Shown one piece after another: positions 29,055 to 43,703 of a stretch of DNA of 64,000 nucleotides. Below the pieces are notes generated by a model. That model saw nothing but the letters and a program-made list of their open reading frames with translations. It searched no databases and was not told the DNA's origin. Source of the DNA: a bacterium HR24 (lineage in GTDB: Bacteria; Chloroflexota; Dehalococcoidia; SM23-28-2; HRBIN24); contig BEIA01000001.1 in the NCBI GenBank assembly GCA_002898715.1, forward strand, positions 1,994 to 65,993, given 5' to 3'. Both the position numbers and the translations under genes were made by a program. How positions within the stretch are numbered: position 1 is the first letter of the stretch; each line of letters begins with the position of its first letter.

Positions 29055-30797
29055 CTACCCGTCGCCCGCCTCCCCATCGGGCCACAGGCCCGCAAAGAGG
29101 CCCCCTCGCCTTTCTCCGCCCACCTCGCGCCACACCTGCCCCAGGGCCCCCCTCGACTCGAGGGCGAGCATGTTGGTGGTCCGCACTGCCGGCAGCATGC
29201 CGCCGGGCATCACCTCCGTGGCCGCCCGGGCGATGGCCTCCTCGCGCGTCCCGTCGGGCGCCACCACCAGCAGCAGCGGCCAGTATAGGGGGCGACCGTA
29301 CCTCAGCAGGTGGCGGTAGTACCCCACGTACCCCCTCAGCTTCTGCCGCCAGCGGCCGTCGCCGGCGGTGCCCCGGTCCCACTCCAGCAGCAGGTGCACC
29401 ATCCTGCCCCCTATGACCACCGCCGCCGAAGCGTCGGGCACCAGCCGCCGCACGCGCCCATCCTCGGCGAACTCACGCGCCGTCAGGGGTGCCTCCCGCA
29501 GGGCCGCCACCCGTCCCCCAACGGCCCTCACCTCGCGGGCAAGCCTCGCGAGAAAGGCCCGCAGCTCCAGCTGGTGGGGCAGGAAGGACGGCGCCGGGAA
29601 GACCCGCTTGGCGCCTATGGGGATGCCCAGCAGCCGGCGTCCCAGCCGCTCCCCCTCGCCGGTGGCGGTCCACCTGCCCTCCACTTCCCTCGCAAGCCCC
29701 TCCCGCTCCATCGCCTCCAGCACCCGCCCCGCCTCCTCCGGCGTCGTGTCCGCCAGGGCAGCAACCTCGGCGGCGGTGCTGCCGGGGTGCCTGAGCAGCG
29801 CCGCCAGCACCCGCCTCCGCCCGGCGCCGGGAGGCATGGTGGGCGACCTCTCGCCACTCCCCGGCGGCGTCCAGGGCGGCAGGGCCGGCGCCCTCGCCTG
29901 GCGGAACGGCAGGGGCAAGGAGAGGGGCGCCTGGCCCAGACGGTGGAGGGTCGCATATAGCCGGCCCGTTCCCCTCCCCTCCACCCTGGTCCACAGCGCC
30001 TCCCAGGGACGAGAGAGGGCGCCGGCCGTGGCCATGTAGACCGGCGGCGCAGGCACACCCCTCCGGCCCCGGGAGGCAGAAAGGTACATGTCCCACTGGT
30101 CCATCTCCTCGTAGCTCGGCGTCACCAGCAGGAGCATGGCGCCGGCCATGACCGGCATCTCGGCCAGGAGACGCGTCCAGGCGCGGGCAAGGGCCTGGCG
30201 CTGCCTTGCCGGCCGCTCTTGCCTGTCCACCAGCACGAAGATGGGGGTGCACCAGTCCTCCCCCACCAGCACGACGATGCCCTGCGCGCCGGCGAAGGCT
30301 GCCCCCTCGACGCCCTGCCGGAGGCGGCACGCCTCCGCCACCGTCAGGCCCCGCTCGCGAGCGCCCCGCGCCAGCCTGGAGATGATGCGGGCGGCGGCGA
30401 GCGCGCCCGTCCCGTCCCACAGCAGGGCCTGCAGCCGCTGCGTCGCCAGCGGCAGGGCCTCCATCTGCACCCCCGCCGCCTCATAGGCCGCCAGCACCCC
30501 TTGGGATGGCAGCCACACCCGCACCACGTCCTCCCGCCCGGTGGAGACCATCTCCTCTCGTGCCCATCCCCTCCTGGCGAGCCTCTGCAGGGCAGCCTCC
30601 ACGTCGGGCAAGGCCATGCCCAGCAGGTCTGCCAGGTGCTCGGCCGCCGCCGCCGGGAGGCGCACCGTGCCCGCCAGCACACGCCGGTCATAGCGCTCCC
30701 AGGGCTTGAGACGTTCTAGGTCTGATGGCGCCGTGGGGGCGTCCATAACCGTCCCGGCGCCCCCACGGGAGTCCCCGTCCGACAGGACTGCTCTCAT
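29055..30797 (-). CDS. Replication-relaxation (Replic_Relax) family protein with two wHTH-like repeats
   Basis: 580 aa; N- and C-halves both carry a winged-helix-like segment followed by a similar conserved block (LVTPSYEEMDQW... / LLVVAPDGTREEA...), as in Replic_Relax proteins of actinomycete conjugative plasmids; co-directional with the T4SS genes. Confidence 0.5.
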   Translation of the reverse strand: MRAVLSDGDSRGGAGTVMDAPTAPSDLERLKPWERYDRRVLAGTVRLPAAAAEHLADLLGMALPDVEAALQRLARRGWAREEMVSTGREDVVRVWLPSQGVLAAYEAAGVQMEALPLATQRLQALLWDGTGALAAARIISRLARGARERGLTVAEACRLRQGVEGAAFAGAQGIVVLVGEDWCTPIFVLVDRQERPARQRQALARAWTRLLAEMPVMAGAMLLLVTPSYEEMDQWDMYLSASRGRRGVPAPPVYMATAGALSRPWEALWTRVEGRGTGRLYATLHRLGQAPLSLPLPFRQARAPALPPWTPPGSGERSPTMPPGAGRRRVLAALLRHPGSTAAEVAALADTTPEEAGRVLEAMEREGLAREVEGRWTATGEGERLGRRLLGIPIGAKRVFPAPSFLPHQLELRAFLARLAREVRAVGGRVAALREAPLTAREFAEDGRVRRLVPDASAAVVIGGRMVHLLLEWDRGTAGDGRWRQKLRGYVGYYRHLLRYGRPLYWPLLLVVAPDGTREEAIARAATEVMPGGMLPAVRTTNMLALESRGALGQVWREVGGERRGGLFAGLWPDGEAGDG

Positions 30798-31225
30798 CTC
30801 CCCTCCCCCTCGTCCTCCGGCCCCACGACGACGAAGGCCAGCCGCTCGCTGCAGTAGCCGCAGTACCTCTGCTGCGGCGGCCTATCGGGGTCGAACTCCC
30901 GCACCTCGACAATGACGGGCGTCGCCCCTGCCCCTTCGACGGCGCGGCGGCAGCTCTCGCAGAGGTCGCGCCGGGCCACTATCCGCGCCGGCCCGTGCGG
31001 GCAGCAGATGCCTGCCTCCTCCCAGCGCAGCAGCATCTCCAGCCGGCACCGGTCCGGCTCCCCGTCCAGGTCGGCGAAGGCACGAGCGCAATACTCCTCC
31101 AGCTCCCGCACCCACTCCTCCATGCCGTCCTCGTCCCGGCGCACCAGCGCCGCCAGGTCGTAGGCAGGCAGCCGCTCCCCCACCCGGTAGTGCCTGTCCA
31201 GCACGGCTATGACCTTCGTCTCCAA
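30794..31225 (-). CDS. Hypothetical zinc-finger-like protein
   Basis: 143 aa with CCPHGP...CESCRR and CGYCSERL cysteine pairs; stop/start overlap with neighbours. Confidence 0.4.
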   Translation of the reverse strand: METKVIAVLDRHYRVGERLPAYDLAALVRRDEDGMEEWVRELEEYCARAFADLDGEPDRCRLEMLLRWEEAGICCPHGPARIVARRDLCESCRRAVEGAGATPVIVEVREFDPDRPPQQRYCGYCSERLAFVVVGPEDEGEGR

Positions 31226-31252
31226 GGCTCTCCCCTCCTCCTGCCTTGTGTC

Positions 31253-33922
31253 CTACAGCTCGTACTCCGAGTCCTCCACCTCGCGCACCCCCGTTGGCAG
31301 GACTAGGCCCGGCCCCTCGCCGGCCGGCATCCTGGCCGCCATGAGCTCCCGCACCTTCGCCTCCACCTCCTGCCGGGGCCGGCCGTAGCGCTCGGCCGAC
31401 CGGCGCCGCACCTCCTCGGCCCGTCCCTCGTCGGGCAGGGGCGGCGGCAGGAGACGGAAGCGGAAGGTGGGCATCGTCTCGCCCTCGCTCCACCAGCGGG
31501 CGTAAGCCTCATGGTCGGGCAGCGACACCAGGTCCTCCACCTTGACGCCGTGGCCCAGCTCCTCCTGGAGGTAGCGCGCGTCCTGTGCCGACACGGTGAA
31601 GACCGTGAGACCATCGATGTTGGCAAACACCATGGGCGCCAGCCGCTCATCGTACTGCTTGAGCCTCTCCAGGCTCTGGGTCACCAGCACCAGCGACAGG
31701 CCGTACTTGGCCAGCTCCGACAGCATGCGCCCGAAGTCGGCTGCCCCCAGGGTGGCCGACTCGTCCACCAGGGCTACCACCCGCTGCCGCTCCTCCCTGG
31801 GCATCCGCACCTGCTCCTCGATGAGGCCCGCCACCAGGTTCAGCAGGCTCGCCCCTATGAGCATGGCGCTGCCCTCGCCCAGGTCGCCCACGGGCACGTT
31901 CACCACCAGCACCCCACCCCCGCGCAGCACCGCCCGCGGGTCCACCGTGGAGCTGGGCTGCCCCACGAACAGCTTGGCCGCCTCCGTCACGCCCCAACGG
32001 GTGACGCGGTTGACGATGGGCTGGGCCATCTCCAGGCGCCGGCTGGGCGGCTGGTCCTCGAAGTTGGGCTTCCACCACCCTATGAGCCCCTCGTCGGGCA
32101 CCTGCTTCAGCACCTCCTCGCGCCGGAAGGTCTGGTTCATGATCATGGGCACCACGTCCAGGATGGTGTACTGGTCCTCCCCCCTCCGCACGCGCGCCTC
32201 GTTGGCCATGTGCAGGCATGCCACCGCTGCCCGCAGCAGCCCCTCCATCCTGGCGCCCCAGGCGAGGGGGTAGAGGCGGTGGAACATGGAGATGATGCGC
32301 TCCACCTGCAGGTCCCGCTCGGGGAAGAGGCGCACGTCCAGCAGGTTAAGCCCCACCGGCCTCCTCAGGCCCTCGTGGCTGAAGTCCAGGTAGGCCACTC
32401 GTTCGGCCAGCGCATCGGGCACCAGCCCCGTCACGGCCCGCGCCAGGTCCCCGTGGGGGTCCACCACCAGCAGCGAGAGCCGCTCCCCCCGGGCCATCTT
32501 GTTCATGACATAGGCGGCGAGGTGCAGGAGCAGCGAGCTCTTGCCCCGCTGGGTCTTGGCCACCACCAGCTGGTGCTTGCCCAGCATGTCGTCAGGCATG
32601 TGGACCGGCATCTCCCGCCCCTGCCATATCACCATCCCCACCTTGCAGCCCGATGGCGCCGTGGCCCCTCTGGGCAACACCATCCGCGCGCCGGCAGGGC
32701 GGTACAGGGGCAGCGAGGCGTCCAGGTGGAAGAGCAGCGCCGCCTCCCCCGACCCGAGGATGTCCCTCCTCCCGGGCGGCGACGGCGCCATCGCCCTCTC
32801 CCCCTTGAGGACCCTCGGGACGAGGGCGCCGCCGGCCGGGTGGGCCACGGACCGGGCAGCGTCGGCCTGCCGCTCCACCAGCGCCAGCAGCCGCTCCCGT
32901 GCCCCCGGCCCGGCCGGCCCGATGGCCGCCACCCTCAGGTCGGCAGCGAAGAGGGCACCGGCCAGCATCTTCTCCTGGGCCTGCTCCGCCGTCAGGCCCG
33001 AGTCGCGGGTCAGCCGGCCCCAGGCATAGAGGGCAAGAGGGGTGCCGACGAGGGCTACCGCCCCGAGGGCCAGCAGCTTCTCCATCTCCCCCTGCCGGTA
33101 GAAGCTCATCCCCAGGAGCACGCCCATGAGCAGCAGGCCCCCCAGCACCAGGGTGACGGCGTCGTTCACCGGGCTCTGCCACTGGTAGTGCAGCCGCGCC
33201 TGGCGCATGTAGTCCTGTCGCATCTTGTGTCTGAGTATGACCTGGCGCAGGTGGGCGGCGATGGCGGCCGGTGCCGGCGACAGGTCCAGCCGCAGCACCG
33301 CCCGCTCCCGCGGCTGCAGGAGGCCCATCACCGCCACCGGCAGGGGCGGCGGCGCGTCGCTCAGGGCGTAGGAGATGGAGAGCTGCGACAGCGACGCCCT
33401 CGCCCCGGGGCCCATCTCCACCCGCGCCAGGGGGGCAAGCCTGCCCGGCCGCAGCTGCAGCCGCGCCGCTGTCATCTCCTCGCCCTCCCTCTTCGACCAC
33501 GGCGACCATCGCGCCTCCTCCACCTCCGCCTGCGGGTAGGCCGCCGAGAGGGCCGTGAGCGCCTGGCGGGCGAACTCCGCCGGCGCCTCGATGAAGTAGC
33601 GCAGGCTGCCGTTCTCGGCCGCCACCATGAGGGCGCAGGACGGCAGGGAGGCGAGCCCCGCGATGAGCCACTCCGCCCGCCGCGCCGGCTCCACGTCCAG
33701 CCGCGAGGCGAACACCTCGTACGTCACCATGCCACCGGCTGCCCCTGCGCCGGGGGTGCTGCCTGCCTCCTCCTCTCTGTCCAGGAGCAGTGCTCTCCCC
33801 TCCCGAGGCGGCCGGTCGTAGAGGGGCTCGTCCAGGGCGGTGTAGCGCAGCGCGTCCTCTATGGGCCGCTCCTTCTCCCATGAGAAGATGCCGGCATCGT
33901 CGGTCGGGTCCCACCTGCTCAT
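31253..33922 (-). CDS. T4SS coupling protein (VirD4/TraD/TraG-like, TraG-D_C/AAA_10)
   Basis: N-terminal TM helices, Walker A QLVVAKTQRGKSSLLLHL, Walker B RVVALVDESATL, C-terminal TraD-like region; start at MSRWDPTDD (33922) preceded by GGGAGGGAGG. Confidence 0.8.
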   Translation of the reverse strand: MSRWDPTDDAGIFSWEKERPIEDALRYTALDEPLYDRPPREGRALLLDREEEAGSTPGAGAAGGMVTYEVFASRLDVEPARRAEWLIAGLASLPSCALMVAAENGSLRYFIEAPAEFARQALTALSAAYPQAEVEEARWSPWSKREGEEMTAARLQLRPGRLAPLARVEMGPGARASLSQLSISYALSDAPPPLPVAVMGLLQPRERAVLRLDLSPAPAAIAAHLRQVILRHKMRQDYMRQARLHYQWQSPVNDAVTLVLGGLLLMGVLLGMSFYRQGEMEKLLALGAVALVGTPLALYAWGRLTRDSGLTAEQAQEKMLAGALFAADLRVAAIGPAGPGARERLLALVERQADAARSVAHPAGGALVPRVLKGERAMAPSPPGRRDILGSGEAALLFHLDASLPLYRPAGARMVLPRGATAPSGCKVGMVIWQGREMPVHMPDDMLGKHQLVVAKTQRGKSSLLLHLAAYVMNKMARGERLSLLVVDPHGDLARAVTGLVPDALAERVAYLDFSHEGLRRPVGLNLLDVRLFPERDLQVERIISMFHRLYPLAWGARMEGLLRAAVACLHMANEARVRRGEDQYTILDVVPMIMNQTFRREEVLKQVPDEGLIGWWKPNFEDQPPSRRLEMAQPIVNRVTRWGVTEAAKLFVGQPSSTVDPRAVLRGGGVLVVNVPVGDLGEGSAMLIGASLLNLVAGLIEEQVRMPREERQRVVALVDESATLGAADFGRMLSELAKYGLSLVLVTQSLERLKQYDERLAPMVFANIDGLTVFTVSAQDARYLQEELGHGVKVEDLVSLPDHEAYARWWSEGETMPTFRFRLLPPPLPDEGRAEEVRRRSAERYGRPRQEVEAKVRELMAARMPAGEGPGLVLPTGVREVEDSEYEL

Positions 33923-34854
33923 GTCCTCCCTCCCTGTGTCTCCAGCGCTGCCACGGCCAAGCGGTCTATGACGGCCGCCACCTCCTCGCCCCCCCAGAGC
34001 CAAGTGTGGAGGCCGCGCAGGCGCGAGCGGCGCATGCGCAGCCACCAGCGCGCCTGGGCTGCCGACAGGGCCCCATGGCCGGCAGCGCCGCCGCCGTACC
34101 GCCTGGCCCAGCGCCGCAGGAGCGGCCTTCTCGCCCAGACGCATGCTATGGCCGTCAGGAGCAAGGCCGGCACGGCTGCAGCAGGGCATGCCCAGAGGAA
34201 GGCGCTTGCCGGCAGCGTGGCTATGATGGGCGCCGCCGACAGGCCCACCACCAACAAAGCTAAGGCCGGCCGCCACTCATCGGTGGTCGCCCACATGGCC
34301 GGCCCCAGCCGCAGGGCATCGACCGCCTCCGGGGCCATCGCCTGGGCGCTGCCTGCCAGGACGAGCACGGTCCCGGCCAGCACCGTGACGCCCGCCGCCG
34401 CCCTCAAGGCCCGCCCCTCCGCCGGGACGGCCCAGGGCATGGCCACCACCTCCAGGAGGGTGCCTGCCGGAAGGCGTGGCCTGCCGGTGATGGTCCAGTG
34501 CGAGAGCCGCCACCAGAGGCGCCACCAGCCGACGGCCCCGGCCCACACCAGAAGGGGGACCGCCGCCCGGACCGGAAGGGATGCCGCGGCCGGCAACCTG
34601 GCGCCGATGACCTCGCCCGCCGCAAGGGGGGCGGCCAGGAAGAACAGGGCGAGCCCGGCCGCCCGTTGCAGCGCCGGGCCGTCCCAGCTCGCCTGCAGGC
34701 CCTGCCATGCCACCTGCGAGGCGCCCGGGCCGAGGAGGACGGACGCGGCTGCGACCGCGGCGACGGCCCCCAGGCGCCAGGCGGCCCTTCCCCGGCCGCC
34801 GCTCCTGCCGGGCGCCGCCCCGCCCGTTCCCACTTGGCCTCTCCCCGTCCTCAT
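33919..34854 (-). CDS. Polytopic membrane protein (conjugation-associated)
   Basis: Repeated hydrophobic helices (LALFFLAAPLAAGEVIG, AVPLLVWAGAVGWWRLWW, LALLVVGLSAAPIIATL, AVPALLLTAIACVWA); 4-nt overlap with the coupling-protein start; start taken at MRTGRG. Confidence 0.5.
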   Translation of the reverse strand: MRTGRGQVGTGGAAPGRSGGRGRAAWRLGAVAAVAAASVLLGPGASQVAWQGLQASWDGPALQRAAGLALFFLAAPLAAGEVIGARLPAAASLPVRAAVPLLVWAGAVGWWRLWWRLSHWTITGRPRLPAGTLLEVVAMPWAVPAEGRALRAAAGVTVLAGTVLVLAGSAQAMAPEAVDALRLGPAMWATTDEWRPALALLVVGLSAAPIIATLPASAFLWACPAAAVPALLLTAIACVWARRPLLRRWARRYGGGAAGHGALSAAQARWWLRMRRSRLRGLHTWLWGGEEVAAVIDRLAVAALETQGGRT

Positions 34855-35504
34855 GGCGCCCCTAGCTCCGCCCGAGGGCATGCCAGCGGGAGCGCGCCTC
34901 GGTGGCGGCGAGCAGCGCTGCCCTGTCCTCGGCCCGTCTGGCCGCCCTCTCGACCGCTCCCATGACCAGCTCCACCGACAGGGGCTCGCCCACCGCCTGG
35001 GAGAGCCTGATGGCCCATGCCACCTGATGGGGGATCTCGCCCTCCCTCCCCACCAGCAGGTCCAGCAGGAAGGAGACGCCTGCCCGGAAGCCGGCAAGGA
35101 AGGCCGCCTCGCCGCCGACGCAGCGGCACACGGGACCATCCCGGTTACGGCTCACGGCAGCCTGCTCCCCCGGGCCGGCTGCTCCCCGCATCGTGCTCTC
35201 CTCGGCCATACGCTCAACCCCACCCGACACATGTGCAGCGCTGCCATCGCCCCTGCCCCCGCCAGGGCGGCCGGCCACCAGCGCAGCCAGACGCCTGCCG
35301 CCCCCATGTGCCCGGCCGCCAGCAGCTCGCCGCCGGCAAGGGGCCAGAGGACCGCCGCCGCCGGCGCTGCCAGGAGGCCGTGCCGCTCGCCTGCCGCTGC
35401 GGCGATGGCTGCCGCCGTCCCGCCCAGGGCCTGGGCGGCGATCCCCAGCGCTGCGGCGGCGCAGACCATGGCCCCGAGAAGCCTTGCCGCCCTCCGCCAC
35501 GCCG

Positions 35505-37370: not shown

Positions 37371-38067
37371 CGCCCTTCACCTGTCCTCTCCCATTGGTGA
37401 GCGCAGGGGTAGCCATGTGCACCGGCAGCAGCTCCGCCGCTATGTCCTGGGGCAGGGGCGCCGACGAGCCCAGAAAGTCGTGCAGGACCTGCACCAGCTC
37501 CTGTCCCGAGAGGCGGCGGCAGGGGATGCCCAGCGAGACGAGGCCGGTCAGCACCTGCTCCACCCTCATCTCCAGCAGGCGCAGGGTGCTCTCCAGCTGC
37601 TCCTCGGCCAGGCGCGCCGCCTCGTCACGTCTCCGAAAGGCCAGAAGGCCCTTGAGGAGCGACGGCGACGGCGCCGCCAGCGGCGGCAAGGGGTCTGCCG
37701 CCACCACCACGTAGATGCGCCGCTCGAGGATGGTCCTCTCCTGGGCCAGGCGGCGTACGAACGCCTCGTGCTCCACCGCCAGCCGCTTGAGGACGGGCGA
37801 CATGAGGAGCCCCTGCCGGGACCGCAGGTGCGCCAGGTAGTCGTCCACCGGCGCCGGCATGCTGCGCACCACGATCTGCAAGGGGAAGGAGAGCGAGTGC
37901 AGGAACGCCCGGAAGGAGGCCACCATCGCCTCCTGCTCGGCCGGAGGCCGGAGCACGAAGTTCACGGGCCTCGCCTCCAGGGCTGCCCTCGCCCTTCCCC
38001 CTTTCAGCACTATGCAGCCCTGACGCACGCCGGCGATGGGCAGGAGCTCCTGTACCGCGCCCGGCAT
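37351..38067 (-). CDS. Hypothetical conjugation protein (possibly VirB4 N-domain-like)
   Basis: Start MPGAVQELL directly after the upstream stop; weak resemblance to the N-terminal domain of the adjacent VirB4 (PVNFVLRPPAEQEAMVASFRAFLHSLSFPLQIVVRS vs VDVSLHIEPLPTGPIVRQLTRKL). Confidence 0.4.
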   Translation of the reverse strand: MPGAVQELLPIAGVRQGCIVLKGGRARAALEARPVNFVLRPPAEQEAMVASFRAFLHSLSFPLQIVVRSMPAPVDDYLAHLRSRQGLLMSPVLKRLAVEHEAFVRRLAQERTILERRIYVVVAADPLPPLAAPSPSLLKGLLAFRRRDEAARLAEEQLESTLRLLEMRVEQVLTGLVSLGIPCRRLSGQELVQVLHDFLGSSAPLPQDIAAELLPVHMATPALTNGRGQVKGDVLRAS

Positions 38068-38069
38068 CG

Positions 38070-39797
38070 CTAGCTGCCTCCCCCCGTCAGACGCCCGTAG
38101 CCGGGGGCCTGACGGATGAACTGGGAGATGTCGCCTGACCGCACGTAGTCCTCGTAGGCCTGCCTGGGCACGTCCACCGCTATGTACCGCGATGCACCAT
38201 AGGCTACGATCCGTGGGCCCCACTCGCGGAAAAGGTCCATGAGCGGCTGCAGGCCGGGCCACTCACCATAGGGCGCATAAGCCCTGCCCTCGGGTATGTA
38301 TATCTCCAGGTGGACCTTGTCGACCGTGCCAGGGGGTAGGATGGGCAGCCCCATGGCGTCCACCGGCTGGCCTGGCAGCGGGCCGCCGAGCAGCCCTCCT
38401 TCCTGTGCCGCCCGCTGGACTTGCGCCGCCCCCTCCTTCGCGATGCGCAGGGCATTCGGATAGTCCAGCGCATAGACGATGTTCAGCCACACTACCGGGT
38501 CCACGCCGGCGGGAGGCGAGGGCGGAGCGTCGCTCCAGGGGCGGGCACTCAAGGGGAAGCCAGCCGGGTTGTAGGCCCAGAAGTCACGCGGCGTGCTCGG
38601 CATGCCAAAGCCCAGGCCCCATGTGTACTTCTCCCCCAGGTACCGACGCACCCACTGCCCCAGGGGCGACGAGGCGAACTGCCCTCTTATCTCATTCACC
38701 ATCTGCATCGTCGCGTTGGCGCCGGCAAGGATCTCATCGAGGCTGGGCACGGCCGCTCCGTCGGCTCCGCTGAGGGCTGCGGCGCTGCCGGCAGAGCCTC
38801 CGCCACGTGCATCCTTGTCCCCCTTGGCAGCGGAGGCCTGCCCGCCGCCGGCAGTGGAGACCTGCACCGCGCCGGCCGTGCCGTTGCTGCTGCTGCCGGA
38901 GGCGCTGCCGCCGCCTATCGCACCGCCGGGCGCGGCCGCCACAGCGGTCGGGGCACCGCTGGCTACCTGCTCGCTGCCTCGGCTCTGCTGAGGGGTCGCA
39001 GCCGGGGCGGCAGGCGGGCCGGGTATCTGTGGGGTGGAGAGCCCGTTCGTGCCGGTGAACGCCCACAGGTAGTCGTCGTAGTACGGGTCCGTGATGCTGG
39101 GCTGGAAGGTGTTCACGATGTCAGGGATTTCGTCATCGAAGCCCGCGTACTCCACGGCCGCCACGATAAGCCCCGCCCCTGTCGATGGCCCCGCGGCAGC
39201 CGTCTGGCTGCCCCCGCCGGCGCCGGCAAGGACCTCGCTGGCTCCCTGGCTGTATGTCTCCCCTGCCGGGGTTGCCAAACCGGCCGTCGGCAGCGGCGCG
39301 ATGCCGATGACGTGGCCTTGCTCTACGGCAGCGGCCGGCGGTGCAGCCGGCTTCGGCACTACCTGCACGAAGGCGCTCAGGAAGACGGCGCCGGCTAGTC
39401 CTCCCTCCAGAAGGCGGCGCAGTGGCGGCACCGTCATCGCCCGCCACACCCTCTCCATCGCTGTCGCCTGCCGAGTATTGCCTCCGGCGGATGCGATGCT
39501 GATGGCGAGCCGCCCGGTAAGCACTGCCCCCAGGTAGGCTACGAGCGCCCAGCCGGCCAGGCTGACCACATAGCGTGCCGCCTCGAGCGGCGGCTCGGTG
39601 GCCGTCAGGGCACGGAGTACGTCGGCGCCGCCGGGCCATGTGGGCGGCGGCCCGGGTGGTGCACCTACGGCGGCCAGTGTGCAGCCGATGGCGGCCGTCA
39701 GGGCGGCTGTGCCCATGAACGTCAGCACCTTTGCCACCCCGACCGCTCCCGCCTCTTCCAGGGCTTCCCGGCGCGCTTCATGTGCGTTCATCCCCAT
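38070..39797 (-). CDS. Membrane-anchored protein with long Gly/Ala/Ser-rich linker and C-terminal globular domain
   Basis: N-terminal TM helices, ~150-aa low-complexity linker (GGGSASGSSSNGTAGAVQVSTAGGG), structured C-terminal domain; position fits a T4SS surface or channel component. Confidence 0.45.
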   Translation of the reverse strand: MGMNAHEARREALEEAGAVGVAKVLTFMGTAALTAAIGCTLAAVGAPPGPPPTWPGGADVLRALTATEPPLEAARYVVSLAGWALVAYLGAVLTGRLAISIASAGGNTRQATAMERVWRAMTVPPLRRLLEGGLAGAVFLSAFVQVVPKPAAPPAAAVEQGHVIGIAPLPTAGLATPAGETYSQGASEVLAGAGGGSQTAAAGPSTGAGLIVAAVEYAGFDDEIPDIVNTFQPSITDPYYDDYLWAFTGTNGLSTPQIPGPPAAPAATPQQSRGSEQVASGAPTAVAAAPGGAIGGGSASGSSSNGTAGAVQVSTAGGGQASAAKGDKDARGGGSAGSAAALSGADGAAVPSLDEILAGANATMQMVNEIRGQFASSPLGQWVRRYLGEKYTWGLGFGMPSTPRDFWAYNPAGFPLSARPWSDAPPSPPAGVDPVVWLNIVYALDYPNALRIAKEGAAQVQRAAQEGGLLGGPLPGQPVDAMGLPILPPGTVDKVHLEIYIPEGRAYAPYGEWPGLQPLMDLFREWGPRIVAYGASRYIAVDVPRQAYEDYVRSGDISQFIRQAPGYGRLTGGGS

Positions 39798-39838
39798 GGT
39801 CCATCCCTCCTTTACCGACCTTTATCGGTGCGCTCTAT

Positions 39839-40306
39839 TCATCCTCTGCTCTCTGCCATCGCTCTCGGCAGAGACCCCTTTATCCCTCTTATCCCTCCGG
39901 CCTGCGCCGTATCGCCTCCTCTCGTGCTCCTCGCTCTCCCTCCGGCGGCGGTCCTACCGCCCAAGACGAGCACCCCCTGCGCCGCCTCCTCGTCTGCCCA
40001 GTCGTTGTCGGCCGGCGTCCAGACCAGCACCCGCGGCGTCGTCCGGTACCTGGCGAAGGCGAGCAGCCAGTCCTCCATCTTGCGCCCGTCAGGCTCTATG
40101 AAGGCCACCGCCAGCGTCGCCGCTCCTATGACGGCCGCTACCAGGTAGCGCAGGGCGCCCGGCAGCGGCAGCGGCGGGGAGAGCACCACTGCTGCCGCAA
40201 AGAAGAGGCCGATGGCCATGACCATGACGTGCCGCACCGTCATGAAGCCGAAGAACACACGGTCCTCCACGTCCAGGTGGGTCGGCACCTCATGTCGCGG
40301 CAGCAT
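39839..40306 (-). CDS. Small membrane protein (VirB3/PrgI/TcpE-like candidate)
   Basis: Two hydrophobic helices (FFGFMTVRHVMVMAIGLFFAAAVV; LVAAVIGAATLAVAFI) in ~155 aa; location between the pilin-like gene and the large membrane protein. Confidence 0.35.
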   Translation of the reverse strand: MLPRHEVPTHLDVEDRVFFGFMTVRHVMVMAIGLFFAAAVVLSPPLPLPGALRYLVAAVIGAATLAVAFIEPDGRKMEDWLLAFARYRTTPRVLVWTPADNDWADEEAAQGVLVLGGRTAAGGRARSTRGGDTAQAGGIRGIKGSLPRAMAESRG

Positions 40307-40330
40307 GGCGCCCTCCCCTCGCCGCTCGCT

Positions 40331-40630
40331 CTAGCCACGCTCCATGCGGGCGGGGTTGCCCTCGGCCGTCATGTAGAGGAACGCTCCCCAGGCGATGAAG
40401 AGGGCGCACAGGGCCAGCGCCACGCCGGTGCCGATGTTGAGCAGGTTGTTGAAGAGCGTGTTGAGCTCGGAGGCCGGCGAGCCCTCGGCGCCTCCGCTGA
40501 CGCCTGGGATGGCGTCCTGCAGCATCCCTGCGATGGTCCGGGCCATAAGGACGATGATGAACCCCACGCCGGCGTTGATCATGGCCGCCTTGCCGGAAAC
40601 GTCCCGCAGGAGCGCATGCAGCCTCCGCAT
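40331..40630 (-). CDS. VirB2/TrbC-like pilin candidate (99 aa)
   Basis: Start MRRLHALL with AAGGAGGTGAAGG RBS; hydrophobic-charged-hydrophobic layout (AAMINAGVGFIIVLMARTIAG ... NIGTGVALALCALFIAWGAFLYM) typical of T4SS pilins. Confidence 0.45.
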   Translation of the reverse strand: MRRLHALLRDVSGKAAMINAGVGFIIVLMARTIAGMLQDAIPGVSGGAEGSPASELNTLFNNLLNIGTGVALALCALFIAWGAFLYMTAEGNPARMERG

Positions 40631-40707
40631 GGCCTTCACCTCCTTTCCCTCTCTCTGTCGCGCTACGGACCGTGTGTCCTCCATGGCGGTCGTCACCTCC
40701 CTTGCGT

Positions 40708-41232
40708 CTAGCTGCCCGGCAGAATCAGGTCCGATACCAGCCATCGCTCTCCCTCCTTTACGATCTGCAGCACTACCAGCCTCTCCGCCTGCCTCGGCCC
40801 GCTCCATTCGCCCCCGGGAGCGCCCGGCACGGCCCGAGCCGTTGCTCGCACCGCCATCTCGGCCCTGCCCTCCCCCTGGCGCAGGTCCACCGTCTCCACC
40901 TTGAGGACGGTGACCGTCAGCCGGTAGACCGACAGCTCCGGCTCGGGCTGCCGCGAGAGGATGCGGGAACGGATGGGGTCGGTGGCCAGCTCCGCCGCCC
41001 TCCGCCGCCACGCCTCATAGTCGCCCTCGTAGGTGTAGTAGCGGCGCACGAACTCCTCTCCCACCTTCTGAGGGCTCCGGGTGACATCCTCCTCCGCGGC
41101 CTTCGCCAGGATGCCTCCCTCCTTGGCACCCCCCTCCCCGCCGTCGCCGCCGCAGCGCACGAATGGCAGGGCGATGGCCGCTATGCATACGGCGGCGAGG
41201 GCGAAGAAGGCGAGCTCCAGCCTGGGCCTCAT
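40708..41232 (-). CDS. Secreted/lipoprotein-like protein (TcpC/NTF2-like candidate)
   Basis: Signal peptide MRPRLELAFFALAAVCIAAIALP followed by Cys; size and position match TcpC-like T4SS proteins. Confidence 0.4.
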   Translation of the reverse strand: MRPRLELAFFALAAVCIAAIALPFVRCGGDGGEGGAKEGGILAKAAEEDVTRSPQKVGEEFVRRYYTYEGDYEAWRRRAAELATDPIRSRILSRQPEPELSVYRLTVTVLKVETVDLRQGEGRAEMAVRATARAVPGAPGGEWSGPRQAERLVVLQIVKEGERWLVSDLILPGS

Positions 41233-41235
41233 CCT

Positions 41236-42213
41236 CTACACCTCCAGGAAGAGCAGCGGGTCCACCGCCTTGCCGTCCACGATGACCCCCAGGTGCAGGT
41301 GGGGCCCGGTAGACTGGCCCGTGTTCCCCACGGCCCCGATGACCTCGCCCTGCTGCACGGCCTGCCCGGGCGCCACCCACGCTTCGGACAGGTGGCAGTA
41401 GACCGTCCTGACGTTCTCCCTGTGGGCGATGACGATGCCCAGGCCACAGATGCTGTCCATCGTCACCGCCTGCACCACTCCACCGGCCGCGGCATGCACA
41501 GGCGTTCCTATGGGTGCAGGAATGTCGATGCCGGTGTGGGGTGTCGGCCCTCTCGCCTCGTCCACCTGCCCGAAGTAGCTGGAGATGCCATAGTAGCCCG
41601 GGACGGGCCACTTGAGGCCCCCTTGCCACTCGCCGCCCAAGCCGTAGGTGGCGGCCACCACCAGGATGCGGTCCACATAGCTCCAGTCGTGGTTGTAGGC
41701 GTACAGGGCCTGGCGCTGCGCCTCCAGGTCGTCATTGCGCCACCCGTGGTCCAAGAGGAAGCGCGCCACCGCCGGCAGGCAGTCCCGGTAGTCGTAGGGG
41801 TCTGCCACCCCGTCGCCGTTCTCGTCGCGGCCGTAGGCGGCCCACGTGTCCGGCATGAACTGACAGTAGCCCACGGCTCCTGCCGATGACGGCCCCATGT
41901 TCTGGCCGAAGCTCGATTCCTCCCTGGCGATGGCTGCCAGCACCTGCCAGGGAATGCCGTACCGCTCCTCGACGGTGATCATCACCTCCAGGTGGTCGGG
42001 CGGCACTGCCAACCCCTGGGGCCCGAAGTAGCTGCCCGCCTGCACGACCACGATGCCCATGAAGGTGGCGAGGGCGCCCAACAGGGCCGCCACGGCAGCG
42101 CCCACCGCCAGCATCACCCCTACCTTCACTCCCAGGATGCCGGCAAGCAGGCGCGCCGCCTGGCCTATCTGCCAGGCCGTCCCTATCGGGTTGGCATCCT
42201 GCTCCCTTCTCAT
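41236..42213 (-). CDS. Bifunctional cell-wall hydrolase: lytic transglycosylase (SLT) + M23 peptidase (CwlT/TcpG-like)
   Basis: SLT motif AIAREESSFGQNMGPSSAGAVGYCQFMP; M23 motifs HTGIDIPAPIGTPVHAA and GAVGNTGQSTGPHLHLGV; N-terminal TM anchor. Confidence 0.85.
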   Translation of the reverse strand: MRREQDANPIGTAWQIGQAARLLAGILGVKVGVMLAVGAAVAALLGALATFMGIVVVQAGSYFGPQGLAVPPDHLEVMITVEERYGIPWQVLAAIAREESSFGQNMGPSSAGAVGYCQFMPDTWAAYGRDENGDGVADPYDYRDCLPAVARFLLDHGWRNDDLEAQRQALYAYNHDWSYVDRILVVAATYGLGGEWQGGLKWPVPGYYGISSYFGQVDEARGPTPHTGIDIPAPIGTPVHAAAGGVVQAVTMDSICGLGIVIAHRENVRTVYCHLSEAWVAPGQAVQQGEVIGAVGNTGQSTGPHLHLGVIVDGKAVDPLLFLEV

Positions 42214-42229
42214 TTCCTAGCTGCCCCTG

Positions 42230-43462
42230 CTAACTGCTCCCGCTATTTGTCCGTGTGAAGCTACGCACCAGGTTGACGGTGCTGATGACGGGAGACCAGC
42301 CGGGCTGCCAGTAGCCCACGGCGCGGCTCAGCAGGTCAGGCACCTTCAGAGCAGCCAGCATGACGGCGATGGCAGCCACTGCCGTCACGACGAGGGGTAC
42401 TGACACCCCTGCTGCCCCCTGGACGGGGATGTAGAGTAGCCCCAGGGTCCCCCCCGACTCCTGCCAGATGATGTTCACCAGCCGGAAGCCCAGCACGAGC
42501 GTCCACACCTGGAGCGCCTGCTGAAAGACGGTAGCCGGGAAAAGGTCTGCCCACAGGCTGCTCCACTTCCGGGTCTGGGGCAGGATCCAGAGCATGAAGG
42601 CGATGGGCCCTGTCACCAGCAGCAGGTCGAGGATGACGAAGCGCATGAATAGCTGGCCGGCAAGGAATACCCCCAGTACCAGCATCACGATCCAGAAGAT
42701 GATCATGGGGACGACCCCAAGGGAGTTGAGCAGCTCCATCCCCGTGTTCTTCAGCTCGTCAGGGTGGATGACGGCCCGCACTAAGACGTTGTTGACGTCC
42801 ACGAGGAAGGTGGCAAGCCATGGGAACACGGCGATAAGGGCGATGGCCGCCGTTGCCCTAGGTAGCAGCTCTCCCACCTCATGGTAGGGGCTGGCTATGT
42901 GGCGGTTGGTCATGATGGCCACGCCGCCCCACATGAGGATGACGGCCAGGAGGCCGAGTGCTATCGCACGGGTGACCTGCATCATGTCCTGGACGAACGG
43001 GGCATGCACCGTGACCTCCTTGCCGGTGTTGCCCAGGAGGTCGTTAAAGGTAAACTCCACCAGCGCCACGAATGGCGCGAATATGAGCTTTATGAACCCC
43101 ACAAACACGTCCAGGAAGCACTTGGGCAGGTCGCCGAAGCACTCGCCCACCTTGCTGATGGTGCTGCCGATGCCGGTGAAAAAGCCCACGATGCCTCCCT
43201 CGCCCACCGGCCCCGGCGCATAGTAATAAGGAGGGCGCTGCTGGGGGGTCTCCTGGCCCGTTGGCGGCTCCGCCCCGCTCTCACCCTGGTCCTGCTGGGC
43301 CGCGGAGGGTGGGGGAGCATCGGCCCAGGCCCTAGCCGGCAGGCCCAGGCCGATGCTCCCCAGGGCAAGGAGCAACACCGCTACTGTCAGGAGTCGTGCC
43401 GCCGTCGTAGCTCGCAACATGCTCTCGCCTCGCTGCACGCCTCCCAGGGTAATGAGGCCCAT
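42230..43462 (-). CDS. Polytopic membrane protein (VirB6/TrbL-like channel component candidate)
   Basis: Signal/TM N-terminus then at least 6 hydrophobic helices (IIFWIVMLVLGVFLAGQLF, ILDLLLVTGPIAFMLWIL...); first gene of the minus-strand T4SS block; alternative start at MLRATTA (43420). Confidence 0.5.
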   Translation of the reverse strand: MGLITLGGVQRGESMLRATTAARLLTVAVLLLALGSIGLGLPARAWADAPPPSAAQQDQGESGAEPPTGQETPQQRPPYYYAPGPVGEGGIVGFFTGIGSTISKVGECFGDLPKCFLDVFVGFIKLIFAPFVALVEFTFNDLLGNTGKEVTVHAPFVQDMMQVTRAIALGLLAVILMWGGVAIMTNRHIASPYHEVGELLPRATAAIALIAVFPWLATFLVDVNNVLVRAVIHPDELKNTGMELLNSLGVVPMIIFWIVMLVLGVFLAGQLFMRFVILDLLLVTGPIAFMLWILPQTRKWSSLWADLFPATVFQQALQVWTLVLGFRLVNIIWQESGGTLGLLYIPVQGAAGVSVPLVVTAVAAIAVMLAALKVPDLLSRAVGYWQPGWSPVISTVNLVRSFTRTNSGSS

Positions 43463-43472
43463 GGTCTCCAGA

Positions 43473-43703
43473 GGGTCAAAGTGGCCTTCTTCGTGGTCTT
43501 GCCGGGGTCAAAATGGGCAGTTTCGGGGTCGTCTTAGGGTCAGATGGCGTAGTGTTGGCTAACCTAGTCGGGGTGGGCTATAGAGAGCTAGCGATACCTA
43601 TCTTGACCCTCAGGAGACCCTGGGAGGCGCCGATTTGACCCCCTGGAGACCCTGGAGAGGCGCGATTTGACCCTCTGGAGACCCTGGGGAGGCGTAGAAT
43701 GGG
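43473..43703. repeat. TTTGACCC-box array: inverted boxes (43473-43547) plus three ~35-bp tandem repeats (43603-43703); putative parC-like centromere or operator
   Basis: GGGTCAAAGTGG, GGGGTCAAAATGGG, GGGTCAGATGG (reverse orientation), then TTGACCCTCAGGAGACCCTGGGAGGCGCCGAT / TTGACCCCCTGGAGACCCTGGAGAGGCGCGAT / TTGACCCTCTGGAGACCCTGGGGAGGCGTAGA in tandem; lies downstream of parR. Confidence 0.55.

What the first reader, a model, noticed from the sequence alone, without database searches (positions are those of the whole stretch)
29055..43462. Complete FATA-type (monoderm) conjugative T4SS with VirB2-like pilin and TcpC-like component
On the minus strand, one co-directional block with overlapping stop/starts encodes Replic_Relax, a VirD4-like coupling protein, membrane proteins, VirB4, a VirB3-like small membrane protein, a VirB2-like pilin, a TcpC-like secreted protein, an SLT+M23 hydrolase and a VirB6-like protein. 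No MOB relaxase of a classical family was recognised. The Replic_Relax protein and the element's UvrD-like helicase are the only candidate processing functions, so the relaxase may be non-canonical.
Basis: partly seen in the sequence, partly recalled or inferred. Interest (0 to 1): 0.6.

Follow-up and report, generated by a model that had tools for sequence, protein, structure and literature searches.

The report
Chloroflexota conjugative element with pilin-bearing T4SS
This is the DNA-transfer machinery of a mobile element integrated in a Chloroflexota chromosome: ordinary in kind, but its relaxase is an internally duplicated MOBC-type nuclease and its VirB2-like pilin is a circular permutant, in a machine related to the essential one of Patescibacteria.

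Summary

Replic_Relax (PF13814) is the MOBC relaxase family, which is already known to pair with FATA-type T4SS and VirD4. No other relaxase was found in the window.

The host is a Chloroflexota MAG. The block lies in an element inserted at window 6448 inside an EVE-domain gene next to dnaA. Empty sites were recovered, and a 95-97% identical copy sits in a different chromosomal context.

The same module, relaxase included, is common in Chloroflexota and occurs on actinomycete linear plasmids. Patescibacteria share pilin, PrgI, TrsD and VirB4, but none of 60 loci had a coupling protein or relaxase nearby.

Two features appear to be new:
- The relaxase is a tandem duplication with only the C-terminal catalytic motif intact.
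- The pilin is a circular permutant of the family's helix-loop-helix.

Verdict: a new variant of a known kind, of moderate interest.

The parts
42230..43462 (-). VirB6-like polytopic membrane protein (410 aa), first gene of the transfer operon
   Evidence: Pfam TrbL_4 at E 2.1e-8, 34.3 bits, above the cut-off of 27. Homologues occupy the same position in Chloroflexota, actinomycete and Patescibacteria loci.
41236..42213 (-). VirB1-like cell-wall hydrolase: lytic transglycosylase plus M23 endopeptidase (325 aa)
   Evidence: Pfam Peptidase_M23 at 1.4e-29, SLT_2 at 5.3e-20 and SLT at 2.2e-8.
40708..41232 (-). VirB8-like protein (174 aa): N-terminal hydrophobic segment plus one NTF2-like domain
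40331..40630 (-). VirB2-like T4SS pilin (99 aa), a circular permutant (helix 2, linker, helix 1, loop)
   Evidence: Pfam T4SS_pilin PF18895 at 2.9e-9, 37.3 bits, above the cut-off of 26.6, but only profile positions 3-46 match. TrbC/VirB2 PF04956 is below its cut-off. An HMM of canonical Chloroflexota pilins hits residues 12-42 at profile 46-76 and residues 55-99 at profile 3-47. The sequence re-permuted in silico matches end to end at 114 bits.
39839..40306 (-). VirB3-like PrgI-family small membrane protein (155 aa)
   Evidence: Pfam PrgI at 1.1e-10, 42.3 bits, above the cut-off of 27. Conserved immediately upstream of TrsD-like and VirB4 in 69 loci.
38070..39797 (-). Variable 575-aa membrane or surface protein, rich in Ala, Gly and Pro; function unknown, possibly an adhesin
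   Evidence: No Pfam or NCBIfam hit. Absent from the syntenic locus L004 and from all other loci surveyed.
37351..38067 (-). TrsD/TraC-like protein (238 aa) that always precedes VirB4
   Evidence: Precomputed Pfam PF26593 TraC-like. Weak NCBIfam TrsD hit at E 3.9e-4. Homologue next to VirB4 in 78 loci.
35505..37370 (-). VirB4 ATPase (621 aa)
   Evidence: Pfam P-loop_TraG at 4e-20 and AAA_10 at 2.1e-9. NCBIfam conju_CD1110 at 1.8e-83, 281 bits, below its 325-bit cut-off. PDB 4AG5 VirB4 at E 3.3e-59.
33919..35508 (-). Three small or membrane proteins (118, 97 and 311 aa) between VirB4 and the coupling protein; function unknown
   Evidence: Gene calls on near-identical contigs. No Pfam hits. The same three are conserved in L004.
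31253..33922 (-). VirD4-type coupling protein (889 aa) with a long N-terminal extension
   Evidence: Pfam T4SS-DNA_transf at 26.5 bits, above the cut-off of 20.1; TraG-D_C at 25.1, above 22; DUF87 at 25.0, above 23.2. Weak match to TrwB 1E9R at the Walker A region, E 0.014. Present in 23 of 25 Chloroflexota loci and 0 of 60 Patescibacteria loci.
30794..31225 (-). 143-aa Cys-rich protein between the coupling protein and the relaxase; candidate relaxosome accessory factor (inference)
   Evidence: No Pfam hit. A counterpart occupies the same position in L004.
29055..30797 (-). MOBC-type (Replic_Relax) relaxase candidate (580 aa): a tandem duplication of wHTH plus nuclease domain
   Evidence: Pfam Replic_Relax at 2.4e-8, 34.8 bits, above the cut-off of 25.3, over residues 356-498, plus wHTH hits at 326-385. 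hhalign of N half against C half gives probability 87.5%, E 3.6e-6 over 215 columns. H408, P454, D455, E472, D474, K486 and Y490 are conserved in at least 95% of 19 sequences. P454, D455 and K486 are invariant, and E472 and Y490 nearly invariant, in a 26-member set of which 25 are PF13814. Adjacent to the T4CP in 20 of 25 Chloroflexota loci.
43459..43694 (.). Repeat region upstream of the operon: 2.9 tandem copies of a 32-nt unit (43603-43694) and an inverted copy at 43459-43479. Candidate relaxase bind site (oriT), operator, or ParR centromere
   Evidence: TRF score 143. The 21-nt core occurs 5 times against 0.02 expected. Inverted repeat I1. The function is not tested.
27448..29034 (+). UvrD-like superfamily-1 helicase, convergent with the relaxase gene; possible unwinding helper, not conserved in relatives
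   Evidence: Pfam UvrD-helicase at 1.2e-18 and AAA_19. Absent downstream of the relaxase in L004 and L003.
9076..10356 (-). Tyrosine integrase of the element
   Evidence: Pfam Phage_integrase at 5.6e-27 plus SAM-like N-terminal domains. A 94% identical integrase lies at the end of the related element in L092 and L093. Related integrases occur in 4 Chloroflexota T4SS loci.
6448..6943 (.). Left end of the inserted DNA: junction at 6447/6448 inside an EVE-domain gene, and an int-proximal arm region (6643-6943) with repeated ATCTGTTTC/ACTGTTTC and TTGATGACCA motifs
   Evidence: Empty-site contigs L177-L181 are 98-99% identical to window 1-6447 and then continue with the intact EVE gene and dnaA. 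The arm region is 79% identical to the sequence next to int in L092 and L093.

Best explanation
This is the conjugation module of an integrative and conjugative element (ICE) in the chromosome of a Chloroflexota bacterium. Chloroflexota is a phylum increasingly regarded as monoderm.

Shown here:
- The element is inserted at window 6448 inside an EVE-domain gene beside dnaA. It carries a tyrosine integrase and is found almost unchanged in other genomic contexts.
- One operon encodes a monoderm-type T4SS: VirB6-like channel protein, SLT+M23 wall hydrolase, VirB8-like protein, VirB2-like pilin, PrgI/VirB3-like protein, TrsD-like protein and VirB4 ATPase. It also encodes a VirD4-type coupling protein and a Replic_Relax (MOBC) protein.

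Inferred mechanism:
1. The integrase, with the HTH_17 protein at 11122-11847 as a possible excisionase, excises the element.
2. The relaxase binds oriT through its winged helix. The 32-nt repeats at 43603-43694 are the candidate bind site.
3. The relaxase nicks one strand with the single intact PD..E.D..K site in its C-terminal half. The degenerate N-terminal copy stands in for the second subunit of a restriction-enzyme-like dimer, which would explain nicking rather than double-strand cutting.
4. A helicase unwinds the strand. The adjacent UvrD-like enzyme is a candidate.
5. The coupling protein hands the DNA to the VirB4-powered channel, and the hydrolase opens the wall.
6. The pilin forms part of the channel or an external filament.
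For: PF13814 is the MOBC relaxase family, and FATA T4SS are known to associate with VirD4 and MobC (PMC5357655). MOBC is PD-(D/E)XK-like. TraX of pAD1 has an N-terminal wHTH and binds direct repeats (PMC12857230).

The catalytic-type residues are conserved. The internal duplication is supported.

Integration and mobility:
- Empty sites L177-L181 define the left junction at 6447/6448.
- L092 and L093 carry the element at 95-97% identity next to proB, thiolase and ruvB genes instead of the window's flank.
- Copies at 99.98-100% identity occur in four other assemblies.

The full operon, with T4CP and Replic_Relax, recurs in Chloroflexota MAGs and on Embleya and Streptomyces plasmids.

No other relaxase family was detected in any window gene scanned.

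Host assignment: an identical VirB4 is named under 'bacterium HR24' and Chloroflexota, and its nearest relatives are Dehalococcoidia and Chloroflexota MAGs.
Against: No experiment supports transfer. oriT and nic are not identified, and the repeat array could equally be a ParR centromere or an operator.

The right junction of the insertion lies beyond the window. The rest of the EVE gene and dnaA are absent, so the ICE's own right end is only inferred from an identity break at 45.9-46.1 kb.

In the window about 2.1 kb, including an IS110 element, separates int from its arm sites. This copy may therefore be impaired for excision.

The PD-(D/E)XK fold of the nuclease domain could not be confirmed by fold search. 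Only wHTH matches surfaced, and the model's mean pLDDT is 69.9.

T4CP domain scores are only just above their cut-offs. MOBC relaxases have not been shown to form a covalent DNA adduct, so how the DNA is piloted is unclear even for the prototype.
Confidence: 0.8

Rival explanations
1. The T4SS is not conjugative. Like the chromosomal T4SS of Patescibacteria, it could serve another purpose such as cell-cell interaction, uptake or protein export, with Replic_Relax acting only in replication or regulation.
For: VirB4, TrsD-like, PrgI, the pilin and the VirB6-like protein are homologous to the Patescibacteria set. VirB4 identity is 37-41%. The Patescibacteria system usually lacks relaxases (PMC12102498).
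Against: The window system has a coupling protein and a MOBC-family protein in the same operon. These co-occur in 20-23 of 25 Chloroflexota loci and in 0 of 60 Patescibacteria loci. It sits on an integrase-bearing insertion, which is also found in another chromosomal context and is absent from otherwise 98-99% identical sites.
Confidence: 0.08
2. The element is a decayed or immobilised remnant, or part of a composite island. The T4SS genes are intact, but this copy no longer excises or transfers on its own.
For: IS110 and extra DNA (about 6943-9099) lie between int and its arm sites. The near-identical GCA_033581795.1 copy has a different IS at 6960. The insertion continues beyond 64 kb, and a module break at about 46 kb suggests tandem elements.
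Against: All 14 operon genes are open and tightly coupled. Copies at 99.98-100% identity occur in several independent assemblies, which suggests recent spread or strong conservation.
Confidence: 0.1
3. A different protein is the real relaxase: the UvrD-like helicase, the AAA_25 RepA-like protein, or one of the unannotated proteins at 10394-12926 or 14748-16443. Replic_Relax would then be an accessory DNA-binding factor.
For: Several element genes have no family assignment. The MOBC mechanism is poorly understood and no covalent intermediate is known.
Against: Only Replic_Relax is syntenic with the T4CP across Chloroflexota and actinomycete loci. UvrD is missing from L004. The nuclease-type residues are invariant across distant homologues.
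Confidence: 0.05

Closest known systems
pCF10 Prg/Pcf and related MPF_FATA conjugation systems of Bacillota (PrgH/I/J/K/L, PcfC)
   Different: VirB4 is only about 20% identical to PrgJ. The relaxase is MOBC rather than MOBP. A PF18895 pilin is present, whereas pCF10 PrgF is not a PF18895 member. No LPXTG adhesins were recognised.
MOBC relaxases: TraX of pAD1 and MobC of CloDF13
   Same: Same Pfam family (Replic_Relax, PF13814). A winged helix precedes a PD-(D/E)XK-type nuclease domain. The gene lies next to a VirD4 gene, and direct repeats nearby could be the bind site.
   Different: The Chloroflexota proteins (about 550-600 aa) are tandem duplications of the whole wHTH-plus-nuclease unit, and the catalytic residues survive only in the C-terminal copy. 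Actinomycete homologues are single-domain. Activity is untested.
T4SS of Patescibacteria (for example Southlakia epibionticum ML1, and the survey in PMC12102498)
   Same: Homologous VirB4 (37-41% identity), TrsD-like, PrgI, VirB6-like and PF18895 pilins, with the shared local order PrgI, TrsD, VirB4.
   Different: Patescibacteria loci have arrays of 4-9 pilin genes. None of the 60 loci has a coupling protein or relaxase within 10 kb, and the system is chromosomal and essential. The window has one pilin gene, plus T4CP, relaxase and integrase. A sister relationship between the two VirB4 clades is not supported (5% NJ bootstrap).
Transfer modules on Embleya and Streptomyces linear plasmids (NZ_CP108778, NZ_CP081497)
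   Same: Same order: pilin, VirB6-like, PrgI/TrsD, VirB4, T4CP, Replic_Relax, hydrolase. VirB4 is 37-40% identical. RefSeq annotates a 'replication-relaxation family protein'.
   Different: They are plasmid-borne, have a single-domain relaxase, a fused PrgI-TrsD, an NlpC/P60 hydrolase and a non-permuted pilin. MOB-suite types them as non-mobilizable.
VirB2/TrbC conjugative pilins, including the head-to-tail cyclised T-pilin and RP4 TrbC (cyclisation is from own knowledge)
   Same: A small protein of two hydrophobic helices. Relatives give sub-threshold TrbC/VirB2 hits. The permutation implies that the N and C termini of the canonical form lie next to each other, as cyclisation requires.
   Different: The window protein fails the PF04956 cut-off (16.5 bits against 27.9). 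It has no long signal peptide. The link between the termini is genetically encoded, not made by a peptidase. No pilus has been observed.

Membership tests
MPF_FATA-type (monoderm) conjugative T4SS | VirB4 belonging to the FATA clade or CONJscan profile | tested here: inconclusive
   The best NCBIfam match is the CD1110-family VirB4 of Firmicutes elements, at 281 bits and below the 325-bit cut-off. The PDB 4AG5 match has E 3.3e-59. In the NJ tree the Chloroflexota clade groups with Patescibacteria, actinomycete and Pontibacillus VirB4s, but the deep order is unresolved. CONJscan was not available.
MPF_FATA-type (monoderm) conjugative T4SS | Class-specific accessory proteins (PrgI/TrsC, TrsD, a VirB8-like PrgL, a wall hydrolase) | tested here: met
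   PrgI is above its Pfam cut-off. TrsD/TraC-like is supported by precomputed PF26593 and a weak NCBIfam TrsD hit. The fold is PrgL-like. SLT+M23 is present.
MPF_FATA-type (monoderm) conjugative T4SS | No outer-membrane core (VirB7, VirB9, VirB10) | tested here: met
   No such Pfam or NCBIfam hit in any protein of the block.
MPF_FATA-type (monoderm) conjugative T4SS | Absence of a VirB2-type pilin, as stated in PMC12102498 and PMC12857230 | tested here: not met
   A PF18895 pilin is present here. It is also present in Chloroflexota, Actinomycetota and Bacillota relatives.
MOBC relaxase (Replic_Relax, PF13814) | Match to the family profile above the curated cut-off | tested here: met
   34.8 bits against 25.3 for the full protein and 37.0 bits for the C-terminal half alone. 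25 of 26 distant homologues are also PF13814.
MOBC relaxase (Replic_Relax, PF13814) | Winged-helix DNA-binding domain N-terminal to the nuclease domain | tested here: met
MOBC relaxase (Replic_Relax, PF13814) | PD-(D/E)XK-type catalytic residues and fold | tested here: inconclusive
   P454, D455 and K486 are invariant, and E472 and Y490 nearly so. The model's secondary-structure order fits. No nuclease fold match was recovered, because wHTH hits dominate, and no solved homologue exists.
MOBC relaxase (Replic_Relax, PF13814) | Site- and strand-specific nicking at a cognate oriT | not testable with these tools
   Only a candidate repeat region (43459-43694) can be named.
VirB2/TrbC pilin (PF04956) and T4SS_pilin (PF18895) | Profile match above the cut-off | tested here: met
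   PF18895 is met at 37.3 bits against 26.6. PF04956 is not met at 16.5 bits against 27.9. NCBIfam 'Mbov_0395 family pilin-like conjugal transfer protein' is below its cut-off at 26.6 bits against 40.
VirB2/TrbC pilin (PF04956) and T4SS_pilin (PF18895) | Canonical order: helix 1, loop, helix 2 | tested here: not met
   The order is circularly permuted: residues 12-42 match profile 46-76 and residues 55-99 match profile 3-47.
TcpC (pCW3) / VirB8 family | NTF2-like VirB8 fold behind an N-terminal membrane segment | tested here: met
TcpC (pCW3) / VirB8 family | TcpC-specific sequence family and two tandem NTF2 domains | tested here: not met
   No Pfam hit. The model has a single domain. The protein is VirB8/PrgL-like, not a TcpC family member.
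Integrative and conjugative element | Integrase plus an insertion relative to an empty site, with both junctions defined | tested here: inconclusive
   The integrase and left junction are established. The right junction lies outside the window, and no att repeat was found.

The most novel reading that the evidence does not exclude
Chloroflexota and some Actinomycetota and Bacillota conjugative elements carry a monoderm T4SS that uses a VirB2-type pilin, contrary to the current textbook statement. This conjugative family would be the mobile counterpart, and possibly the source, of the essential non-conjugative T4SS of Patescibacteria.

The naturally circularly permuted pilin in this element shows that the two termini of these pilins are adjacent and can be joined. 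That would mean the subunit has the same architecture as the cyclised T-pilin and could build a real conjugative filament through a single-membrane envelope.

The tandem-duplicated MOBC relaxase would be a built-in pseudo-dimer that turns a restriction-type nuclease into a nickase.
Probability: 0.3. Interest if true: 0.8.

Novelty: new variant of a known kind. Interest (0 to 1): 0.55.

Why it matters
Conjugation outside Proteobacteria and Firmicutes is poorly described, and none of the papers retrieved in the full-text searches run here described a Chloroflexota conjugation system.

This element gives a complete, intact example with a known insertion site, recovered empty sites and near-identical copies in several metagenomes. 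That makes it a practical model.

It also bears on three open questions:
- Whether monoderm T4SS can use VirB2-like pilins. Recent reviews say only Patescibacteria do. Here the PF18895 pilin is found in T4SS loci of four phyla.
- Where the essential Patescibacteria T4SS came from.
- How MOBC relaxases, which are restriction-enzyme-like proteins, cut only one strand. The duplicated, half-degenerate architecture suggests a testable answer.

The circularly permuted pilin is a natural experiment on pilin topology.

Tried and rejected
- **tRNA-Arg as attachment site.** tRNA-Arg(CCT) lies at 5709-5784, but its 3' end is not repeated anywhere in the window. The empty-site comparison puts the junction at 6447/6448 in an EVE gene instead.
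- **Direct-repeat searches for att cores.** These found nothing usable.
- **GCA_033581795.1 as the window's source.** It is not identical. Identity is 99.6-99.98% over 6960-45899 but only 82-88% beyond 46122, with different IS content.
- **'Only 12 homologues' of the relaxase.** This was an artefact of the word index. Local HMMs find it in 20 of 25 Chloroflexota loci, and an exhaustive search finds 198 cluster representatives.
- **Chloroflexota and Patescibacteria VirB4 as sister clades.** The NJ tree drew it that way, but bootstrap support is 5%, so I do not claim it.
- **A conserved repeat array in relatives that would mark oriT.** TRF found arrays in only a few loci, and at different places.
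- **Promoter and terminator scan of the operon.** Uninformative.
- **Rfam.** Only the tRNA was found.
- **Megablast of the block against plasmids.** No match.
- **Tad genes as a conserved partner of this T4SS.** CpaF homologues are not near the T4SS in other Chloroflexota loci.
- **pCF10 PrgF as a member of the pilin family.** Only a weak local-HMM hit (E 4e-4), and not PF18895.

Full report
**Observation**

The window is about 72% G+C, so raw ORF lists are mostly noise. Third-position GC picks out one chain of minus-strand genes from 43462 down to 29055. The gene calls on near-identical public contigs agree with this chain.

The genes are tightly packed. Four junctions overlap by 4 nt, one by 20 nt, and the remaining gaps are 2-77 nt. 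The coupling-protein gene starts at 33922, not at the first in-frame start at 34276.

**Component identities**

Pfam places the following above their curated cut-offs:
- 42230-43462: TrbL_4, VirB6-like
- 41236-42213: SLT + Peptidase_M23
- 40331-40630: T4SS_pilin (PF18895)
- 39839-40306: PrgI, VirB3-like
- 35505-37370: P-loop_TraG/AAA_10, VirB4
- 31253-33922: T4SS-DNA_transf/TraG-D_C, a VirD4-type coupling protein
- 29055-30797: Replic_Relax preceded by a winged helix

Further evidence:
- A VirB4 family profile matches the solved VirB4 domain 4AG5 at E 3.3e-59.
- The best NCBIfam model for VirB4 is the CD1110 family of Firmicutes elements, below its equivalog cut-off.
- The 238-aa protein at 37351-38067 carries a precomputed PF26593 TraC-like hit and a weak TrsD hit.
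- Nothing resembling VirB7, VirB9 or VirB10 was found.
- The 575-aa protein at 38070-39797 has no assignment and is missing from the closest syntenic relative, so it is a variable accessory.

**The relaxase question**

That does not hold. Coluzzi et al. (PMC5357655) equate PF13814 with the CONJscan MobC superfamily. They count it among the canonical families and note that FATA T4SS associate with VirD4 and with MobP, MobQ and MobC relaxases.

The 2025 T4SS review (PMC12857230) describes MOBC as PD-(D/E)XK-like. It reports that TraX of pAD1 has an N-terminal winged helix, binds five direct repeats 70-120 bp from nic, and has no detected covalent intermediate.

In the window protein:
- The C-terminal half (residues about 325-540) has the winged helix and the Replic_Relax domain.
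- H408, P454, D455, E472, D474, K486 and Y490 are conserved in at least 95% of 19 Chloroflexota and actinomycete homologues.
- P454, D455 and K486 stay invariant, and E472 and Y490 nearly so, in a 26-member set drawn from an exhaustive search. 25 of those members are themselves PF13814.
- I scanned every credible gene in the window against Pfam and found no other relaxase family.

The architecture is what is unusual. A profile-profile comparison of the N half against the C half gives 87.5% probability, E 3.6e-6, over 215 columns. The protein is therefore a tandem duplication of the whole winged-helix-plus-nuclease unit. The N-terminal copy lacks the H, PD and K positions.

All Chloroflexota homologues share this double form. 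The Embleya and Streptomyces homologues are single-domain and align to the C half.

My inference, untested, is a built-in pseudo-dimer with one active site, which would explain nicking by a restriction-type enzyme. Fold searches of the model returned only winged-helix proteins, so the nuclease fold itself is unconfirmed.

**Host and element**

A protein identical to the window's VirB4 is recorded under 'bacterium HR24' and Chloroflexota. The next 120 homologues (55-60% identity) are largely from Dehalococcoidia and Chloroflexota MAGs. Chloroflexota are increasingly regarded as monoderm (bioRxiv 10.1101/2025.08.19.671072).

The left part of the window is chromosomal: hrcA-grpE-dnaK, ubiA, yceI, tRNA-Arg and iscA.

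Five metagenomic or MAG contigs carry the identical YceI protein. They are 98-99% identical to window 1-6447 and then continue with an intact 148-aa EVE-domain gene, dnaA, obg and gyrB. In the window the EVE gene is cut after about 26 codons, at 6447/6448. That is the left junction of an insertion next to the replication origin region. The rest of the EVE gene and dnaA are not in the window, so the right junction lies beyond 64 kb.

Within the insertion:
- A tyrosine integrase lies at 9076-10356.
- An int-proximal region with repeated motifs lies at 6643-6943. In the window it is separated from int by about 2.1 kb that includes an IS110 transposase.
- Two JGI contigs carry the integrase-side part of the element (window 9099-20299) at 95-97% identity. 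Their flank encodes aldehyde dehydrogenase, thiolase, proB, CopC and ruvB, which is a different chromosomal context.
- Four other assemblies hold stretches that are 99.98-100% identical.
- Against GCA_033581795.1, identity is 99.6-99.98% from 6960 to 45899 and drops to 82-88% beyond 46122. I read this as a module boundary near 46 kb, possibly the ICE's own right end with a second element in tandem. This is not proven.

Other genes in the element:
- an HTH_17 protein
- an AAA_25 RepA-like protein
- a type IIG restriction-modification enzyme
- a DinG-like helicase
- a partial Tad-like set (CpaE-like, CpaF, TadB, TadC)
- LysM+M23
- the UvrD-like helicase
- beyond the operon, a ParM-like actin and a small RHH-like ORF

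**Wider family**

A scan of one genome per species with a VirB4 profile returned 20 Chloroflexota loci (49-62% identity) and then about 60 Patescibacteria loci (36-42%). Note that the scan is seeded by two peptide motifs and so is not unbiased. I built HMMs from the window proteins and searched the six-frame ORFs of all the loci.

- **Chloroflexota:** the loci repeat the window's operon. Counts, which are limited by contig ends, are T4CP in 23 of 25, Replic_Relax in 20 of 25 and pilin in 17 of 25. Four loci also carry related integrases.
- **Patescibacteria:** the loci keep PrgI, TrsD-like and VirB4 (50-60 of 60), a large VirB6-like protein and, in 17 loci, arrays of 4-9 pilin genes. None has a coupling protein or Replic_Relax within 10 kb.
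- **Actinomycetota:** Embleya and Streptomyces linear plasmids carry pilin, VirB6-like, PrgI/TrsD, VirB4, T4CP, single-domain Replic_Relax and a hydrolase. MOB-suite types them as non-mobilizable.
- **Bacillota:** a Pontibacillus plasmid has two pilin genes. RefSeq already names one of them 'Mbov_0395 family pilin-like conjugal transfer protein'.

Pfam independently confirms PF18895 above its cut-off for pilins from all four phyla.

This contradicts the statement in two recent papers that VirB2-like pilins are absent from Gram-positive or MPF_FATA systems except in Patescibacteria. Database curators had evidently noticed such proteins already.

A neighbour-joining VirB4 tree drew Chloroflexota and Patescibacteria as sisters. 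Bootstrap support for that pairing is only 5%, against 100% for Chloroflexota alone and 79% for Patescibacteria alone. The deep order is unresolved and I do not claim it.

**The pilin is circularly permuted**

Canonical Chloroflexota pilins are about 77 aa: Met, then helix 1 (QINTLFxNLLNIG...WGAFLYM), a loop (SAAGSPxQMERGK), then helix 2 (AIVNALAGLAIVLLARVIAGMIQ).

The window protein reads in a different order:
1. a short N-terminal tail
2. GKAAMINAGVGFIIVLMARTIAGMLQDAIP, which is helix 2
3. a Gly/Ser linker
4. ELNTLFNNLLNIGTGVALALCALFIAWGAFLYMTAEGNPARMERG, which is helix 1 plus the loop, followed by the stop codon

An HMM of nine canonical pilins hits it in two pieces in swapped order. Residues 12-42 match profile 46-76 at E 1.9e-12, and residues 55-99 match profile 3-47 at E 1.1e-22. 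When I re-permute the sequence in silico it matches end to end at 114 bits, E 3.7e-37.

The closest relative, L004, has the same permutation. This explains why Pfam matched only half of its profile.

The permutation implies that the outer ends of the two helices are adjacent and tolerate a covalent link. The same condition underlies head-to-tail cyclisation of VirB2 and TrbC (own knowledge). The one full-text search run for this (terms 'circular permutation', 'VirB2', 'pilin') retrieved a single paper, which proved unrelated.

**oriT**

The 280-bp gap upstream of the operon holds 2.9 copies of a 32-nt unit at 43603-43694, an inverted copy overlapping the first start codon, and further TTGACCC half-sites. 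The 21-nt core occurs five times against 0.02 expected.

By analogy with TraX this could be the relaxase bind site. It lies directly downstream of the ParM/RHH pair, so it could equally be a centromere or an operator. Relatives do not show a conserved array position.

**Verdict**

The system is a Chloroflexota ICE with an MPF_FATA-like T4SS, a VirD4-type coupling protein and a MOBC relaxase. That is a known combination in an under-studied phylum.

Three things lift it above routine:
- the duplicated, half-degenerate relaxase
- the circularly permuted VirB2-like pilin
- the clear homology of its core to the Patescibacteria T4SS, while it retains the full DNA-transfer functions

Noticed in passing
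window 40331-40630 (-); also L004 1404-1760: The T4SS pilin is a circular permutant (helix 2, linker, helix 1, loop) of the canonical Chloroflexota PF18895 pilin. The re-permuted sequence matches the family HMM end to end.
   Followed up: yes
window 6370-6447, and 6448 onward; L177-L181: The insertion interrupts an EVE-domain gene about 26 codons in, immediately beside dnaA, obg and gyrB in empty-site genomes. The element therefore sits next to the chromosomal replication origin region. The right junction lies outside the window.
   Followed up: partly
window 45899-46122, against L171/L002 (GCA_033581795.1): There is a sharp drop in identity to the near-identical relative, from 99.6-99.98% to 82-88% with indels. 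This suggests a module or element boundary, and possibly a second element in tandem at 46-64+ kb. That stretch encodes a ParE-like toxin, a DnaG-like primase, MoxR/VWA, a CCA-type nucleotidyltransferase and AAA_5/DUF2201.
   Followed up: partly
window 21183-25467 (+): There is a partial Tad/type IVc pilus-like set inside the element: a receiver-domain CpaE-like ParA, a CpaF ATPase, TadB and TadC. It is followed by a 135-aa coiled-coil protein and a 222-aa Cys/Trp-rich protein. No Flp pilin or prepilin peptidase was recognised. The set is not found next to the T4SS in other Chloroflexota loci.
   Followed up: partly
window 43459-43694, 45199, 45372, 45553, 46833: TTGACCC-containing motifs recur through the low-GC 43.4-46.9 kb stretch, including a 32-nt x 2.9 array between the RHH gene and the T4SS operon. 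This could be a centromere, an operator or an oriT bind site.
   Followed up: partly
window 45183-45279 and 45354-45450: Two 97-nt direct repeats (75% identical) lie 171 nt apart in a non-coding, low-GC region upstream of parM. There is no Rfam match. They could be iterons or small RNA genes.
   Followed up: no
window 50253-50319, 53835-53901, 59041-59107: A 67-nt conserved leader (75-84% identical) ends at the start codon of three different plus-strand genes. It may be a shared regulatory 5' region.
   Followed up: no
window 47386-47439 and 48825-48878; 47496-48215 against 59106-59813: Two nearly identical (96%) 54-nt palindromic elements flank a gene plus a ParE-like toxin pair. The flanked 254-aa gene has a 75-88% identical paralogue at 59073-59822.
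   Followed up: no
window 6943-9099; L176 1-622: The window and GCA_033581795.1 have different IS content at the same spot. The window has IS110 (7937-8785) plus extra DNA between int and its arm sites. The relative has an IS256-like transposase at the position equivalent to 6960.
   Followed up: partly
window 16603-19569 (-): There is a large type IIG-like restriction-modification ORF (HSDR_N + N6_Mtase + Eco57I-like) on the element, in a lower-GC segment (62-66%). The gene call on the relative is 684 aa, against a 988-aa ORF here.
   Followed up: no
L005 (Embleya) and L088 (Streptomyces) plasmids: Actinomycete linear plasmids typed 'non-mobilizable' by MOB-suite carry a full module: pilin, VirB6, PrgI/TrsD, VirB4, T4CP and Replic_Relax. 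Their mobility is probably under-called.
   Followed up: partly
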